Positions 2 to 4,057 of a stretch of 4,057 nt of DNA are shown here, piece by piece. How positions within the stretch are numbered: position 1 is the stretch's first letter; each line of letters opens with the position of its first letter. The stretch is taken from the IMG/VR virus record IMGVR_UViG_3300029873_000288, positions 1 to 4,057 of that record. One strand, given 5' to 3'. The notes under the pieces were generated by a model that saw only the letters and a list, made by a program, of their open reading frames with translations, searched no databases and had not been told where the DNA came from. The translations under genes were made by a program, and so were the position numbers. Origin of the DNA: a virus. Its lineage: Duplodnaviria > Heunggongvirae > Uroviricota > Caudoviricetes.

Positions 2-451
2 TGCGTGGTCATCATTGCCCTGCTGGTGGCCTGTGGTGCGCTTAGTCTGGGGCTGAATCATTACCGTGATAACGCCATTACCTACAAAGCCCAGCGCGAC
101 AAAAATGTCAGAGAACTGAAGCTGGCGAACGCGGCAATTACTGACATGCAGATGCGTCAGCGTGATGTTGCTGCGCTCGATGCAAAATACACGAAGGAGT
201 TAGCTGATGCGAAAGCTGAAAATGATGCTCTGCGTGATGATGTTGCCGCTGGTCGTCGTCGGTTGCACATCAAAGCAGTCTGTCAGTCAGTGCGTGAAGC
301 CACCACCGCCTCCGGCGTGGATAATGCAGCCTCCCCCCGACTGGCAGACACCGCTGAACGGGATTATTTCACCCTCAGAGCGCGACTGATAATAATGCAA
401 AAACAACTTGAAGGGGCACAGCTATACATTCGAGAGCAATGCCTCAGATAA
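2..451 (+). CDS. Rz: Rz-like i-spanin (inner-membrane spanin subunit of the lysis cassette); 5' end lies upstream of the window
   Basis: Open frame runs from the window edge to TAA at 449-451. The translation (..[107 protein letters not shown]..) is near-identical to lambda Rz as recalled. An N-terminal hydrophobic segment is followed by a coiled-coil-like charged region, and an Rz1-like gene is embedded in the +1 frame. The GTG at 5 is probably not the true start. Confidence 0.9.
207..389 (+). CDS. Rz1: Rz1-like o-spanin (outer-membrane lipoprotein), entirely embedded in the +1 frame of Rz
   Basis: ATG at 207 is preceded by AAGGAG at 195-200. The 60-aa product [20 protein letters not shown].. 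has a lipobox (VVGC, Cys20) and a proline-rich mature region ([15 protein letters not shown]), and ends at TGA 387-389. It is almost identical to lambda Rz1 as recalled. Confidence 0.85.
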
Positions 452-758
452 AAACCGGCCAAGGATAATCCGCTGAAGATTCGCCGGTGGCTAAAGTGTG
501 CCAAGAGTTCAATTTACGCAATTACTCCTGTCGATGCTATGCACCGTCTTTGTGAAGTCAATGGATACCTGATTTATTTCTGTGCGCTGTATCGTCGCTG
601 TACTCTTGCATTAATTATGACTGTAGCCTGACGGGGAACTCCTTCTGCACAAGTGTGGGGGAATAATCAAAAACGATGCACACCGGGGTTACCGGGTACA
701 CATATTTCATCATGCCAGCGAGTCCGGTTCTGGTACGGAAGAAACCGGACGTTATGAT

Positions 759-1169
759 TTAGTGCGGAAATATTTGTGTAGTGTTCTGAATGTTCTCAGT
801 AAAGAGTAATGAATTATCAAAGGTATAGTAATATCTTTTGTTTTCGTGGATATTTGTAATCCATCTGAAAACCCCTGCTGTAGCAAGATTTTTCCTGTAT
901 TCGTAAAATGATAACTCTCCTGATTTGAATCCTTTTAAGGTGGCTTCTATAAGGCATTTATTTTTTGAAAATCTTACATTTACAACCTTACCCTGTCCTT
1001 TTATTAAAACCGTATTATCGTTTTCAAGAACAAGATGAATATTCTCTGTGGCTAAATAGTAAATGTAATGTGAGACATTGTGACGTTTTAGTTCAGAATA
1101 AAACCAGTGATAGTTTAAATTATTTCGCACTTTATCGAATATTTGTTTAAAAATGGCAACCTGAGCCAT
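759..1169 (-). CDS. DUF1398-family protein, homologous to the lambda p78 'putative envelope protein' (YbcV/YdfO-like); function unknown
   Basis: Minus-strand ORF with stop TAA (revcomp of 759-761). The preferred start is the ATG at 1167-1169 ([11 protein letters not shown]..), which has a GGAAGG Shine-Dalgarno 9-14 nt upstream. The alternative upstream ATG at 1182-1184 (MEGTTMAQ..) has no SD. The 136-aa product resembles lambda p78 ([34 protein letters not shown]..) as recalled. Confidence 0.8.
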
Positions 1170-1226
1170 TGTAGTACCTTCCATGTGATATGAGGGGGCG
1201 TAGTCTGCACGATTATCTAAATTGCT

Positions 1227-1460
1227 TCAATCTGGTCTGATCTGTTTTCTGAGCAATTCAGTAATGTCACTCTTTTCTTTGTTTGCTTCAGGCGAAACTC
1301 TTTTTTCTGAGCACAGTCTCCGGCGGCAGGCTTCAATGACCCAGGCTGAGAAATTCCCGGACCCTTTTTGAACAAGAGCGATGTTAATTTGTTCAATCAT
1401 TTGGTTAGGAAAGCGGATGTTGCGGGTTGTTGTTCTGCGGGTTCTGTTCTTCGTTGACAT
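1227..1460 (-). CDS. Small Arc/Mnt-like ribbon-helix-helix (RHH) DNA-binding protein, 77 aa, function unknown
   Basis: Minus-strand ORF from ATG (revcomp of 1458-1460) to TGA (revcomp of 1227-1229). It has a basic N-terminal tail (MSTKNRTRRTTTR) followed by NIRFPNQMIEQINIALVQKGSGNFSAWVIEA, which aligns position by position with the P22 Arc strand-helix-loop-helix (NLRWPREVLDLVRKVAEENGRSVNSEIYQRV). The 5' two-thirds of the gene and the flank up to cos look near-identical to the lambda right end as recalled. Weak SD (AGGG, 7 nt spacing). Confidence 0.7.
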   Translation of the reverse strand: MSTKNRTRRTTTRNIRFPNQMIEQINIALVQKGSGNFSAWVIEACRRRLCSEKRVSPEANKEKSDITELLRKQIRPD

Positions 1461-1629
1461 GAGGTTGCCCTGTATTCAGTGTCGCTGATTTGTATTGTCT
1501 GAAGTTGTTTTTACGTTAGGTTGATGCAGATCAATTAATACGATACCTGCGTCATAATTGATTATTTGACGTGGTTTGATGGCCTCCACGCACGTTGTGA
1601 TATGTAGATGATAATCATTATCGCTTTAC

Positions 1630-1636
1630 GGGTCCT
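1630..1636. other. cosQ (termination element for DNA packaging), approximate position
   Basis: The segment TTTACGGGTCCTTTCCGGTGATCCGACAGGTTACG immediately left of cosN matches the lambda right end as recalled. The 7-bp GGGTCCT lies about 24-30 bp upstream of the top-strand nick, where lambda cosQ maps. The exact boundaries are from memory and uncertain. Confidence 0.5.
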
Positions 1637-1659
1637 TTCCGGTGATCCGACAGGTTACG

Positions 1660-1671
1660 GGGCGGCGACCT
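1660..1671. other. cosN, the 12-nt cohesive-end sequence (GGGCGGCGACCT); terminase nicks are expected at 1659/1660 (top strand) and 1671/1672 (bottom strand)
   Basis: Exact lambda cohesive-end sequence GGGCGGCGACCT, flanked on the left by ..CAGGTTACG (lambda right end) and on the right by CGCGGGTTTTCGCTATTTATGAAAATTTT (lambda left end). Confidence 0.85.
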
Positions 1672-1710
1672 CGCGGGTTTTCGCTATTTATGAAAATTTT
1701 TAGGGAAAAA

Positions 1711-1725
1711 TCAGATCCGTTCTTC
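1711..1725 (+). promoter_or_regulatory. cosB R3-like element (terminase small-subunit binding site), TCAGATCCGTTCTTC
   Basis: One of three copies of the core TCAGATCC(G/T)TT(C/T)T. Its position and orientation match lambda R3. The right half (CCGTTCTTCTTC) is shared with lambda R3, while the left half differs (TCAGATC here, GCGTTTC in lambda). Confidence 0.6.
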
Positions 1726-1732
1726 TTCTTTT

Positions 1733-1745
1733 TAACTGATTGATT
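1733..1745 (-). promoter_or_regulatory. IHF binding site (I1-like) within cosB
   Basis: The reverse complement of 1733-1745 is AATCAATCAGTTA, a perfect match to the IHF consensus WATCAANNNNTTR. An A/T-rich tract (1746-1769) flanks it on the side expected for IHF sites. It sits between R3 and R2, as I1 does in lambda. Confidence 0.6.
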
Positions 1746-1764
1746 ATAAATAGAATTTTAAAAA

Positions 1765-1781
1765 TATAAAAGGATCTGACA
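1765..1781 (-). promoter_or_regulatory. cosB R2-like element, inverted orientation (minus strand TCAGATCCTTTTAT)
   Basis: GGATCTGA at 1772-1779 is the inverted copy of the TCAGATCC core. It lies between the R3-like and R1-like copies, reproducing the forward-inverted-forward arrangement of lambda R3-R2-R1. Confidence 0.55.
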
Positions 1782-1810
1782 AAGGCTGTTTTTGTTAGAA
1801 AACGCCATTT

Positions 1811-1825
1811 TCAGATCCTTTCTGG
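1811..1825 (+). promoter_or_regulatory. cosB R1-like element, TCAGATCCTTTCTGG
   Basis: Third copy of TCAGATCC(G/T)TT(C/T)T, about 15 bp upstream of the Nu1 start codon. Confidence 0.6.
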
Positions 1826-1840
1826 TTCCCGGGGGAGTGT

Positions 1841-2389
1841 ATGAACGTCAATAAGAAAAAACTGGCCGATATTTTTGGCGTTGATGTCAGGACCATCACC
1901 GCCTGGCAGAGTCAGGGGTTACCACTAGTTTCTGGTGGAGGGAAAGGGACTGAATCAGTTTTTGATACAACTGCTGCCATTCAGTGGTATGCGCAGAGGG
2001 AAGCTGATATTGAAAACGAAAAACTCCGTAAAGAGATCGAGGATTTGAGGGCTGCCAGCGAATCAGACCTTCAGCCCGGCACCATTGATTACGAACGTTA
2101 CCGACTGACGAAGGCACAGGCCGATGCACAGGAGCTGAAAAATGCTCGTGAGGAAGGCCTTGTCCTCGAGACAGAGTTATTTACCTACATCTTTCAGCGA
2201 GTGGCACAGAATATATCAGGGATCCTTGTCCGTGTCCCTCAGACACTGCAGCGTAAATACCCTGATATATCACCCGTACATCTTGATGCTGTGAAAACTG
2301 AAATCGCGAAAGCATCCGATGTGGCTTCTGAAGCCGGTGAGAATGTGCGCAGGTGGATTGATGATTTCAGACGAACTGAGGGCGGCTAA
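1841..2389 (+). CDS. Nu1: Terminase small subunit (Nu1-like; winged-HTH cosB-binding protein)
   Basis: ATG at 1841 is preceded by GGGGGAG (1831-1837); stop TAA at 2387-2389. The 182-aa product [38 protein letters not shown].. is collinear with lambda Nu1 (MEVNKKQLADIFGASIRTIQNWQEQGMPVLRGGGKGNE..) as recalled. It has an N-terminal HTH and the GGGKG motif, and sits immediately downstream of cosB. Confidence 0.95.
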
Positions 2390-4057
2390 TTCTGCAGGAG
2401 CGATAGCAACCGGCCTCCTTGCGCTAAAAATTCCTGTCCCTCTGACGACAGTTCAGTGGGCAGATCGACATTATTACCTTCCGAAAGAGTCATCTTACAC
2501 CCCGGGGCGGTGGGAAACACTGCCGTTTCAGGTTGCCATCATGAACAGCATGGGGAATGACCGGATCCGCACTGTTAATCTGATTAAATCTGCCCGTGTT
2601 GGTTATACAAAGATGTTGCTGGGAGTGGAGGCTTATTTTATTGAGCATAAATCACGCAACAGCCTTCTTTTCCAGCCCACGGATTCTGCTGCTGAAGATT
2701 TTATGAAATCTCATGTGGAACCCACGATCAGGGATGTGCCGGTTTTACTCGATCTTGCACCGTGGTTTGGGCGTAAACATCGTGATAATACCCTCACGCT
2801 GAAACGTTTTTCATCGGGCGTGGGCTTCTGGTGCCTGGGCGGGGCTGCCGCTAAAAACTACCGTGAAAAATCCGTGGACGTGGTCTGCTATGACGAACTT
2901 TCCTCGTTCGAACCGGATGTCGAAAAAGAGGGTTCGCCAACCCTGCTTGGGGATAAACGTATTGAGGGCTCTGTATGGCCCAAATCCATTCGCGGCTCGA
3001 CGCCTAAAATCAAAGGCACCTGCCAGATCGAAAAAGCGGCCAACGAGTCGGCGCATTTCATGCGTTTTTATGTGCCCTGCCCACACTGTGGGGAGGAGCA
3101 GTATCTGAAATTTGGCGATGAATCCACGCCTTTTGGCCTTAAATGGGAGAAGGACAGCCCCGAAAGCGTTTTCTACCTCTGTGAACATCATGGCTGCGTG
3201 ATCCATCAGTCTGAGCTTGACCAGAGCAACGGGCGGTGGATCTGTGAAAACACGGGGATGTGGACCCGTGACGGTCTGACGTTTTTCAGCGCCGCGGATA
3301 ATGAAATTCCGCCGCCGCGCTCCATCACGTTCCATATCTGGACGGCGTACAGTCCGTTCACCACATGGGTACAGATAGTCTATGACTGGCTGGATGCACT
3401 GAAAGATCCCAACGGCCTGAAAACCTTTGTGAACACCACGCTGGGCGAGACCTGGGAAGAGGCCGTGGGCGAAAAACTCGATCACCAGGTACTGATGGAT
3501 AAGGTTGTTCATTACACGGCGGCGGTGCCTGCCCGGGTGGTTTATCTGACGGCGGGCATTGACTCGCAGCGAAACCGTTTTGAGATGTATGTCTGGGGAT
3601 GGGCTCCGGGAGAGGAAGCCTTTCTGGTGGATAAAATCATCATTATGGGACGTCCCGATGAGGAAGAGACGCTGTTACGTGTGGATGCGGCGATCAACAA
3701 AAAATACCGCCATGCGGATGGCACCGAAATGACCATTTCCCGTGTCTGCTGGGACACCGGGGGGATCGATGGTGAAATCGTCTACCAGAGGTCAAAAAAA
3801 CACGGTGTTTTCCGTGTGCTGCCGGTAAAAGGCGCGTCTGTCTATGGCAAGCCGGTGATCACCATGCCGAAAACCCGCAATCAGCGGGGCGTTTATCTGT
3901 GTGAAGTGGGGACGGACACCGCAAAAGAAATTCTCTATGCCCGTATGAAAGCCGAGCCCACGCCTGCGGATGAAGCCACGTCGTATGCCATCCGTTTTCC
4001 TGATGATCCGGAGATTTTTTCGCAGACAGAGGCGCAGCAACTGGTCGCGGAAGAGCT
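2361..4057 (+). CDS. A: Terminase large subunit (gpA-like), 3'-truncated by the window edge; about 565 codons are present
   Basis: ATG at 2361 is preceded by AGGTGG (2351-2356) and overlaps the last 29 nt of Nu1. The frame stays open to the window end. The translation (..[117 protein letters not shown]..) is collinear with lambda gpA as recalled, including the N-terminal ATPase motif KSARVGYTK (codons 76-84, nt 2586-2612). This ORF is missing from the supplied track only because it has no in-window stop. Confidence 0.95.

What the first reader, a model, noticed from the sequence alone, without database searches (positions are those of the whole stretch)
1227..1460. Arc/Mnt-family RHH ORF abutting cosQ, with a mosaic breakpoint inside its 3' end
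The ORF matches the Arc strand-helix-loop-helix pattern position by position (N-[IL]-R-[FW]-P, then helix A, a G-[RS]-[SG]-x-N loop, then helix B) and is preceded by a basic arm, so it is very probably a sequence-specific DNA-binding repressor. Its target is unknown. It lies about 170 bp from cosQ and reads away from cos. As recalled, lambda has the same ORF at its right end with a different C-terminal tail (lambda ..RRRLTSEKRAYTSIKSDEE; here ..RRRLCSEKRVSPEANKEKSDITELLRKQIRPD). The homology break therefore falls inside the gene: the DNA-binding domain is conserved and the tail is swapped. I am not sure this ORF is annotated in the reference lambda genome.
Basis: partly seen in the sequence, partly recalled or inferred. 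Interest (0 to 1): 0.5.

Follow-up and report, generated by a model that had tools for sequence, protein, structure and literature searches.

The report
Prophage ynfO: small ribbon-helix-helix gene
The ORF is real and is the already catalogued but unstudied prophage gene ynfO (lambda carries the ylcI form, unannotated in its reference record); its conserved first 50 residues most likely fold as a ribbon-helix-helix DNA-binding domain, and its short tail differs in every phage lineage compared.

Summary
Observation confirmed. Window 1227-1460 (-) encodes a 77-aa protein 96% identical to E. coli K-12 YnfO (Qin prophage). It matches Pfam DUF3950 and the NCBIfam YlcI/YnfO family. Lambda carries the same ORF at 48109-48303 (c). 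The homology break is inside the gene. Window 1298-1659 is 97% identical to lambda. The 54 bp at 1244-1297 replace 613 bp of lambda that carry the ybcW-like gene. Lambda still holds the last ynfO codons (VRPD-stop) 584 bp beyond its present stop.

So an RHH fold is likely, Arc/Mnt family membership is not shown, and repressor function and target are unproven. A new lead: phage satellites fuse this domain to the DNA-binding domain of a small terminase subunit. Overall this is an ordinary "known unknown" with a useful fold assignment.

The parts
1227..1460 (-). ynfO-type gene, 77 aa including the stop codon at 1227-1229. Member of DUF3950 / YlcI-YnfO.
   Evidence: ORF list. PF13132 at 72.9 bits against a cut-off of 25. 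NF041551 at 35.3 bits against 30. 96% identical to K-12 YnfO. dN/dS 0.04-0.10.
1422..1460 (-). Residues 1-13, basic N-terminal arm (MSTKNRTRRTTTR).
   Evidence: Read from the sequence. A K/R-rich arm is conserved across the family. Low-confidence part of the model.
1407..1421 (-). Residues 14-18 (NIRFP), the predicted ribbon strand. I15 is invariant; R16 and F17 are conserved in at least 90% of members.
   Evidence: Non-helical, extended in the AlphaFold model. Aligned to Arc NLRWP by hhalign. Conservation.
1365..1406 (-). Residues 19-32, predicted helix A.
   Evidence: H19-32; block pLDDT 72-84.
1353..1364 (-). Residues 33-36 (GSGN), the loop before helix B. The N-F-S-A-W motif that follows is the family signature.
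1299..1352 (-). Residues 37-54, predicted helix B. This is the end of the block shared with lambda.
1230..1298 (-). Residues 55-77, the YnfO-type tail with a predicted helix at 59-74. It is lineage-specific.
   Evidence: Tails differ between YnfO, YlcI/lambda, BP-4795, 783R2 and satellite copies. pLDDT 61-68.
1244..1297 (.). 54-bp segment with no counterpart in lambda. Lambda has 613 bp here (47528-48140), which carry lambdap79, the ybcW-like gene. The junctions lie at about 1243-1245 and at 1297/1298.
   Evidence: blastn and anchored alignments.
1241..1255 (+). Left copy of a 15-bp direct repeat (TCTGTTTTCTGAGCA) that sits on the left junction.
   Evidence: family D1. The second copy is at 1299-1313 (93% identical).
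1299..1313 (+). Right copy of the 15-bp direct repeat (TCTTTTTTCTGAGCA), on the right junction.
1461..1590 (-). The 130 bp upstream of the ATG, nearly invariant in five lambdoid elements. It holds the inverted repeat 1530-1542 / 1550-1562 (13-nt arms, 85% complementary). These are candidate control sequences. No consensus sigma-70 promoter was found.
   Evidence: Alignment. Repeat I3. Promoter scans.
1660..1671 (+). cosN cohesive-end 12-mer GGGCGGCGACCT. Window 1659 corresponds to lambda 48502, the right end of the lambda record.
759..1184 (-). DUF1398 gene (YdfO/YbcV type). It lies 42 bp downstream of ynfO on the same strand.
   Evidence: PF07166 at 3.3e-43. PDB 2hh8 YdfO at 1.4e-69. It follows the ynfO-type gene in 79 of 80 IMG/VR loci.
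1841..2389 (+). Nu1-type small terminase subunit, divergent from ynfO across cos.
   Evidence: PF07471 at 1.6e-86.

Best explanation
The ORF is the lambdoid-prophage gene ynfO, a member of the DUF3950 / YlcI-YnfO family.

Shown here:
- It is a genuine protein-coding gene under strong purifying selection.
- Only the first ~50 residues are conserved. The C-terminal tail differs in every phage lineage compared.
- The 'breakpoint' is one edge of a replacement of 54 bp by 613 bp. That replacement separates the YnfO allele (window, Qin) from the YlcI allele (lambda, DLP12).

Inferred:
- Residues 1-13 form a basic arm. Residues 14-54 form a ribbon-helix-helix domain that pairs with a second copy, so that two NIRFP strands form a two-stranded ribbon lying in the DNA major groove. 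N14 and R16 would point at bases; I15 and F17 would sit in the core.
- The protein is therefore most likely a small dimeric, sequence-specific DNA-binding regulator. It would be made from the strand opposite to the late operon, like other prophage-expressed accessory genes such as bor.
- It probably controls its own leftward transcription unit (here ynfO-ydfO) through sites in the nearly invariant 130 bp upstream of its start codon.
- The tail is an exchangeable appendage, not part of the DNA-binding core.
- The lambda/YlcI form looks derived. Lambda keeps the last four ynfO codons plus the stop (GTC AGA CCA GAT TGA, 47511-47525 complement) stranded 584 bp beyond its present stop codon.
For: Identity: PF13132 at 72.9 bits, NF041551 and phrog_949. 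96% identical to K-12 YnfO; the lambda ORF is 100% identical to K-12 YlcI. PGAP labels the same locus 'YlcI/YnfO family protein' in E. coli genomes that match the window at 100%.

Real gene: dN/dS 0.04-0.10 with dS 0.75-1.4 over codons 1-49 against the BP-4795 and 783R2 copies. Homologs down to about 35% identity keep I15, R16, F17, F37, W40, V41, A44 and C45.

Fold:
- The AlphaFold model has an extended segment at 14-18, helices at 19-32 and 37-54, and core pLDDT of 72-84.
- The Foldseek PDB list includes Arc (1b28, 1bdv, 1par), CopG, AmrZ and NikR.
- Nearly all the functionally named hits in the viral structure library are RHH proteins.
- hhalign against Arc gives P = 0.0014 in the predicted register, and 1 of 300 shuffles reaches that score.

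Regulator-like setting:
- The gene lies on the strand opposite to the late operon in lambda-type, window-type and HK97-type (BP-4795, 783R2) phages.
- In satellites a 60-aa copy is divergent from the replication operon. The palindrome GGTACGTACC occurs twice in its 146-bp upstream region.
- The domain is fused to other DNA-binding modules.

Mosaic structure. YnfO-type tails are always followed by DUF1398.

Against: The model places a low-confidence helix at residues 8-13.

No consensus sigma-70 promoter lies between the ORF and cos. No operator can be defined, because the upstream block is too conserved for comparative analysis.

In the Stx phages no co-oriented gene follows the ORF, so 'operon leader' cannot be its general role.

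No experiment on YnfO, YlcI or DUF3950 was found in the searchable literature.

The direction of the 54/613-bp replacement is a parsimony argument, not proof.
Confidence: 0.55

Rival explanations
1. Packaging-linked DNA-binding protein. The RHH protein acts at or near cos or the small terminase subunit. It might keep terminase off the prophage cos in lysogens, or interfere with packaging by related phages or satellites. It would not be a plain transcription factor.
For: The gene lies immediately before the packaging module, on the opposite strand, whatever the terminase type: Nu1 type in the window, lambda, DLP12 and Qin, and HNH + Terminase_2 type in BP-4795 and 783R2.

In helper-embedded or PICI-like satellites the domain is fused to a TerS N-terminal DNA-binding domain. 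That domain is 64-66% identical to the helper-type TerS and only 53% identical to the satellite's own TerS. The fusion architecture persists down to 44% identity in 5 clusters.

The RHH-coding part belongs to the block shared with lambda at 97% up to the end of the lambda record (window 1298-1659); the shared sequence runs on through cosN to about 1700 in other lambdoid elements.

A conceptual precedent exists in Listeria: TerI, a small prophage gene on the strand opposite to the early lytic module that blocks packaging.
Against: Other family members sit in settings with no terminase. One lies between a TonB-dependent receptor and CopC. Another lies in an island with CbtA toxin and TraI genes. 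Others lie next to integrases.

From general knowledge, not tested here, lambda packaging in vivo and in vitro has never needed a product from this region.

The position may only reflect the accessory-gene-rich region between the lysis and head genes. In the fusion the RHH domain may simply provide dimerisation.
Confidence: 0.15
2. Antitoxin-like RHH partner of the downstream DUF1398 protein (YdfO/YbcV). The RHH domain would repress the two-gene operon and the C-terminal helix would bind and neutralise YdfO, as in ParD, RelB or TacA systems. The tail swap would then change partner specificity.
Against: DUF1398 is not a known toxin family and matches no defence or toxin model. In lambda and DLP12 a gene on the other strand separates the two. 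The Stx-phage and satellite copies have no DUF1398 neighbour at all. The tail is not conserved across the family. The linkage follows simply from the two genes being one contiguous DNA block.
Confidence: 0.08
3. A true Arc/Mnt-family repressor, homologous to the P22 immI proteins and acting on an antirepressor or immunity circuit.
For: The strand and helix A align in register with Arc; N and R sit at Arc's base-contacting positions N11 and R13. Arc structures appear among the Foldseek hits.
Against: There is no hit to Pfam Arc PF03869, even at E <= 10. hhalign probability is 17% over only 26 columns. The loop length differs from Arc. No ant-like gene lies in the window. Other RHH families score as well as Arc or better in the fold searches.
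Confidence: 0.03
4. Not a functional protein: an open frame kept only because the DNA next to cos is conserved.
For: The 400 bp around cos are nearly identical among Nu1-type lambdoid phages. The ORF is unannotated in reference lambda. No promoter was found.
Against: Synonymous sites are close to saturation (dS 0.75-1.4) while amino acids are kept (dN/dS 0.04-0.10) against copies in phages with an unrelated packaging module. Diverged homologs occur far from any cos.
Confidence: 0.02

Closest known systems
E. coli K-12 YnfO (Qin prophage, b4533) and YlcI (DLP12 prophage, b4589); Pfam DUF3950 (PF13132); NCBIfam NF041551 'YlcI_YnfO_N'
   Same: The window protein is 96% identical to YnfO, and the gene order is the same (nohA/Nu1 - ynfO - ydfO). 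The lambda ORF is 100% identical to YlcI, again with the same gene order (ybcV - ybcW - ylcI - nohD). The NCBIfam model covers only the shared N-terminal part, so the curators already treat the two tails as different.
   Different: Nothing of substance: 3 substitutions (E30V, S57P, V74I). No function has been described for either K-12 protein in the literature searched.
Arc and Mnt repressors of phage P22 (Pfam PF03869); more broadly the MetJ/Arc/CopG ribbon-helix-helix superfamily
   Same: The predicted topology is arm - strand - helix - loop - helix. The strand alternates N-I-R-F-P like Arc's N-L-R-W-P. It is a small phage-encoded protein. Arc, CopG, NikR, AmrZ and many RHH antitoxins are the structures most similar to the model.
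   Different: No HMM-level sequence match. The loop is one residue shorter. Its own signature is N-F-S-A-W-V-x-E-A-C in helix B. There is an extra variable tail. The genomic setting is next to cos and the terminase genes, not an immunity region. Dimerisation, operator and repressor activity are untested.
RHH antitoxins with C-terminal partner-binding helices (KacA/TacA DUF1778, ParD, RelB, B. subtilis MazE)
   Different: The downstream gene (DUF1398, PDB 2hh8) is not a known toxin. The pairing is absent from many lineages and the tail is not conserved.
Satellite proteins that act on helper terminase: RppA of E. coli PICIs and TerI of Listeria prophages (literature: PMC6739421, PMC9026076, bioRxiv 10.1101/2025.02.27.640495)
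   Same: These are small proteins of mobile elements linked to the small terminase subunit or cos. The satellite DUF3950-TerS-N-terminal-domain fusion suggests a comparable target.
   Different: No sequence relationship was shown or tested. For the window gene itself there is no evidence of any effect on packaging.

Membership tests
DUF3950 / YlcI-YnfO family | Score above the curated cut-off of Pfam PF13132 and NCBIfam NF041551 | tested here: met
   72.9 bits against 25. 35.3 bits against 30. phrog_949 at 5.8e-33.
DUF3950 / YlcI-YnfO family | Orthology with K-12 ynfO: sequence identity and conserved gene order (Nu1 homolog - ynfO - DUF1398) | tested here: met
   96% identity. Gene order matches. 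70-79 of 80 related loci share this order.
Ribbon-helix-helix (MetJ/Arc/CopG) superfamily | N-terminal beta-strand followed by two helices joined by a short loop | tested here: met
   Prediction only: extended segment 14-18, helices 19-32 and 37-54, core pLDDT 72-84.
Ribbon-helix-helix (MetJ/Arc/CopG) superfamily | Structural similarity to solved RHH proteins above significance thresholds | tested here: inconclusive
Ribbon-helix-helix (MetJ/Arc/CopG) superfamily | Intertwined homodimer whose two strands form the DNA-reading ribbon | not testable with these tools
   Only single chains can be modelled.
Ribbon-helix-helix (MetJ/Arc/CopG) superfamily | Sequence-profile match to an established RHH family | tested here: inconclusive
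   HMMER found none at E <= 10 for 19 members, and no PDB hit. hhalign against Arc gives P = 0.0014 and probability 17% in the correct register; 1 of 300 shuffles reaches it.
Arc/Mnt family (Pfam PF03869) | Match to the Arc HMM at or above its gathering score | tested here: not met
   No PF03869 hit for the window protein or for 18 homologs. By contrast, every hit returned for the Arc query itself carries PF03869.
Arc/Mnt family (Pfam PF03869) | Sequence-specific operator binding and repression | not testable with these tools
   Needs EMSA, footprinting or a reporter assay.
Type II antitoxin of the RHH class | Cognate toxin of a recognised family encoded next to it, and a conserved toxin-binding C-terminus | tested here: not met
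   The neighbour is DUF1398 (YdfO), with no toxin or defence match. The tail is hypervariable and the neighbour is often absent.

The most novel reading that the evidence does not exclude
DUF3950 may be a ribbon-helix-helix module dedicated to the cos/terminase interface of lambdoid phages and their satellites. The phage copy, made from the prophage on the strand opposite to the late operon, would bind DNA beside cos. It might keep terminase from cutting the resident prophage, or exclude related phages. Satellites would have weaponised the same module by fusing it to a copy of the helper's small-terminase DNA-binding domain, to occupy or redirect the helper's packaging site. That would add an unannotated, conserved lambda gene to the packaging story.
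Probability: 0.12. Interest if true: 0.6.

Novelty: new member of a known kind. Interest (0 to 1): 0.3.

Why it matters
Lambda is the best-studied temperate phage, yet this conserved gene under purifying selection, 200 bp from cos, is missing from its reference annotation. Its K-12 copies (ynfO, ylcI) are listed among the uncharacterised 'y-ome' genes. Assigning the domain to the ribbon-helix-helix fold turns a DUF into a testable DNA-binding hypothesis. The satellite fusions to a small-terminase DNA-binding domain give a concrete place to look for function. The mosaic analysis also shows, at base resolution, how an accessory gene (ybcW) was spliced into the 3' end of another gene without destroying its conserved domain. 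None of this is surprising in kind: small RHH regulators and mosaic joints at domain edges are common in phages.

Tried and rejected
- HMMER against Pfam at E <= 1 for the window protein, and at E <= 10 for all 19 family members, found no RHH family.
- phmmer and hmmsearch against all PDB sequences gave only chance hits.
- The AFDB50 fold library was not available.
- Consensus promoter scans, both the tool's and a laxer one of my own, found no convincing sigma-70 promoter in 1461-1660. The only good matches on the minus strand lie at 1782-1743, in the region between cosN and Nu1 that differs from lambda, so they cannot serve the lambda copy.
- Comparative search for an operator failed: the 130 bp upstream of the ATG are nearly invariant in all five lambdoid elements available, and the Stx-phage copies have only 41 bp between the ORF and the HNH gene.
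- Rfam and tRNA searches of the whole window found nothing.
- PADLOC defence models found nothing meaningful.
- Literature searches for YnfO, YlcI, DUF3950, DUF1398, YdfO and YbcV found only gene lists and mutation tables.
- My recollection that the Nu1/cosB side of the window resembles phage 21 could not be checked. The phage collection has no close DNA relative (best 86% identity over 34% of the query), so I do not claim it.
- The idea that the Stx-phage copies share the YnfO-type tail (suggested by tblastn coverage of residues 1-71) was rejected once the sequences were read: their tails are unrelated.

Full report
**What is in the window.** The window is the lysis-to-packaging joint of a lambdoid E. 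coli prophage.
- Rz/Rz1 lie at 5-451 (PF03245).
- A DUF1398 gene lies at 759-1184 (-).
- The target ORF lies at 1227-1460 (-).
- The cosN 12-mer GGGCGGCGACCT lies at 1660-1671.
- A Nu1-type small terminase gene lies at 1841-2389 (+), and the large terminase gene follows.
- An E. coli chromosome matches window 600-1850 at 100%. PGAP annotates it there as 'DUF1398 domain-containing protein | YlcI/YnfO family protein | terminase small subunit'.

The ORF is 77 aa, with ATG at 1460 and TGA at 1227-1229, and it reads away from cos. Lambda has an ORF of 64 aa at NC_001416 48109-48303 (complement): MSTKNRTRRTTTRNIRFPNQMIEQINIALEQKGSGNFSAWVIEACRRRLTSEKRAYTSIKSDEE. No feature is annotated there in NC_001416 or J02459. 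Other RefSeq lambdoid records call it a 'YlcI/YnfO family protein'.

**What the gene is.** It matches three curated models:
- Pfam DUF3950, at 72.9 bits against a cut-off of 25.
- NCBIfam NF041551 'YlcI_YnfO_N', at 35.3 bits against 30.
- phrog_949, of unknown function.

The window protein is 96% identical to K-12 YnfO of the Qin prophage. The lambda protein is 100% identical to K-12 YlcI of DLP12. Gene order matches too. Qin has nohA - ynfO - ydfO, like the window. DLP12 has ybcV - ybcW - ylcI - nohD, like lambda. Both tail forms are therefore already annotated genes of the E. coli reference genome, with no known function. YnfO is listed among the y-ome genes. Full-text searches for YnfO, YlcI and DUF3950 found no functional study.

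**It is a real gene.** Against the copies in the Stx-type phages BP-4795 and 783R2, whose packaging modules are of a different type, codons 1-49 give dN/dS of 0.04-0.10. Synonymous divergence there is 0.75-1.4. Conservation is therefore at the protein level and is not a by-product of DNA conservation next to cos.

The family is small. An exhaustive HMMER scan of 1.84 billion representatives found 108 with E <= 0.001. Many of those are frameshifted versions of the lambda copy, often on contigs of about 3.5 kb. Genuine diverged members (about 35-55% identity) keep I15, R16, F17, F37, W40, V41, A44 and C45.

**The fold.** The AlphaFold model has mean pLDDT 72 overall and 72-84 in the core. It shows:
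- an extended segment at 14-18 (NIRFP);
- helix 19-32;
- loop 33-36;
- helix 37-54;
- an extra, lower-confidence helix at 59-74 in the tail.

At the sequence level:
- HMMER finds no RHH family in Pfam, even at E <= 10, for 19 members.
- HMMER finds nothing in the PDB.
- A profile-profile comparison with an Arc alignment (built) aligns RRTTTRNIRFPNQMIEQINIALVQKG with SKMPQFNLRWPREVLDLVRKVAEENG. P = 0.0014 and probability 17%. Only 1 of 300 column-shuffled profiles reaches that score.

It puts N14 and R16 at Arc's base-contacting N11 and R13, and I15 and F17 at Arc's core positions.

My conclusion is that an RHH fold is likely (about 0.8). Membership of the Arc/Mnt family itself was tested and not met.

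**The mosaic joint.**
- Window 1298-1659 matches lambda 48141-48502 at 97% identity.
- Window 582-1243 matches lambda 46867-47527 at 82%.
- The 54 bp at 1244-1297 have no lambda counterpart. They replace 613 bp (47528-48140) that carry lambdap79, the ybcW-like gene, on the other strand.
- In protein terms, residues 1-55 are shared and the tails differ after that.
- Lambda still holds GTC AGA CCA GAT TGA at 47511-47525 (complement). This reads V-R-P-D-stop, the end of K-12 ynfO, and lies 584 bp beyond the present ylcI stop codon.

This favours a ynfO-like ancestor into which the ybcW segment was spliced, giving lambda and DLP12 a new, shorter tail. The reverse event is not excluded.

In the window, a 15-bp direct repeat sits on both junctions: TCTGTTTTCTGAGCA at 1241-1255 and TCTTTTTTCTGAGCA at 1299-1313. 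The two copies are in different reading frames, so the repeat is a DNA-level feature. It may be a short-homology recombination site.

The tail is different again in BP-4795, in 783R2 and in the satellite copies. The edge of the conserved domain therefore marks where every compared lineage diverges. On the other side, the shared sequence runs through cosN to about 1700 and ends where the region between cosN and Nu1 begins.

**Setting and leads to function.** In every lambdoid phage examined, the gene lies between the lysis genes and the packaging module, on the strand opposite to the late operon. This holds whether the terminase is Nu1 type or HNH + Terminase_2 type. In 80 IMG/VR loci with the YnfO-type tail, DUF1398 follows on the same strand in 79. 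A Nu1 homolog lies divergently upstream in 70; the others are cut by contig ends.

Diverged members occur in other mobile elements:
- In helper-embedded or PICI-like satellites they lie in the zone next to integrase and AlpA, again on the strand opposite to the main operon. The zone layout is described in bioRxiv 10.1101/2022.07.18.500453.
- One lies in an island with CbtA and TraI genes.
- One lies between a TonB-dependent receptor and CopC.

In the satellites, one copy (60 aa) is divergent from the replication operon. Its upstream region has two copies of the palindrome GGTACGTACC around a TATAAT.

A second satellite copy is a fusion of the DUF3950 domain with a TerS N-terminal DNA-binding domain (Terminase_2, E = 1.6e-11). 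That domain is 64-66% identical to the helper-type TerS and 53% identical to the satellite's own TerS. The architecture persists down to 44% identity in five clusters.

**Most likely mechanism.** I take the protein to be a small dimeric RHH DNA-binding regulator made from the non-late strand. It probably controls its own leftward unit (ynfO-ydfO here) through the nearly invariant 130 bp upstream, which hold a 13-nt inverted repeat at 1530-1562. These steps are inferred:
- No consensus promoter was found.
- No operator can be defined.
- The only expression evidence found is indirect: a paper lists ybcW-ylcI as a convergent overlapping transcript pair in K-12.

The rivals are:
- a packaging-linked role, supported by the position and by the TerS fusion;
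- an antitoxin-like partnership with DUF1398, weakened because the tail is not conserved and DUF1398 is absent from many lineages;
- true Arc/Mnt membership, which was not met;
- a non-functional ORF, refuted.

**Verdict.** The object itself is a catalogued gene family of unknown function, not a new system. The useful outcomes are:
- the identification as ynfO/ylcI;
- a fold assignment for DUF3950;
- a base-level map of the allele replacement;
- the satellite fusion as a lead to function.

Noticed in passing
window 1711-1718 (+), 1772-1779 (-), 1811-1818 (+): There are three exact copies of TCAGATCC, all between cosN and the Nu1 start (0.15 expected by chance; 0 of 200 shuffles reach 3). Two of them lie inside a 23-nt inverted repeat (1769-1791 / 1799-1821). 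They sit where lambda has its R3/R2/R1 Nu1-binding sites, so they are probably the cosB repeats of this terminase. The sequence of this region is unrelated to that of DLP12, Qin and PhiR49_1.
   Followed up: partly
window 443-581, compared with lambda 46423-46866: The bor gene of lambda (46459-46752) has no counterpart here. About 139 bp of unrelated sequence take its place between Rz and the DUF1398 gene. This is a second mosaic indel in the same accessory-gene region.
   Followed up: partly
window 759-1184 (-); lambda lambdap78 (47042-47575): The DUF1398 (YdfO/YbcV) gene is labelled 'head protein' in PHROGs (phrog_413) and in RefSeq lambda. Its solved structure (PDB 2hh8) is a hypothetical protein, and I found nothing linking it to heads. 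The lambda annotation also starts 36 codons upstream of the start used here; that extension runs over the stranded remnant of the ynfO 3' end.
   Followed up: partly
L005 6001-6363 (+) and L004 4714-5103 (+); proteins P0213, P0180, P0285-P0287: Phage satellites integrated in or near prophage late genes encode a 120-129 aa fusion of the DUF3950 domain with a small-terminase N-terminal DNA-binding domain. That domain is closer to the helper-type TerS (64-66% identity) than to the satellite's own TerS (53%). Upstream of the fusion gene lie several GTT(T)AACAC repeats (L005 about 5890-5990).
   Followed up: partly
L005 5540-5592: The palindrome GGTACGTACC occurs twice around a TATAAT, just upstream of the satellite's 60-aa DUF3950 gene. 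This lies in the 146-bp gap that separates the gene from the divergent replication operon, and it looks like an operator-promoter arrangement.
   Followed up: no
window 1476-1589 (-): A 37-codon GTG-start ORF (MEAIKPRQIINYDAGIVLIDLHQ...) lies in the invariant block between ynfO and cos, in the same orientation. One RefSeq record (ev099, gp73) annotates a longer, end-truncated ORF spanning this stretch. The region is too conserved to judge whether it codes.
   Followed up: no
proteins P0020-P0120 and P0121-P0221: Many 'homologs' in the large protein collections are frameshifted or error-laden versions of the lambda YlcI ORF. They often sit on contigs of about 3.5 kb, which look like long-read copies of a lambda right-end control fragment. 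They inflate the apparent size and diversity of the family.
   Followed up: no
window 1610-1622 (+): There is a perfect 13-bp palindrome GATAAT-C-ATTATC just left of the expected cosQ position. It is present, with a single base change at most, in lambda, Qin, DLP12 and PhiR49_1.
   Followed up: no
window 1690-2400: The region between cosN and Nu1, together with the Nu1 gene itself, has no close DNA relative among 50,697 phage records (best 86% identity over 34% of the query). Yet the same sequence occurs in several complete E. coli chromosomes at 99.8-100% identity.
   Followed up: partly
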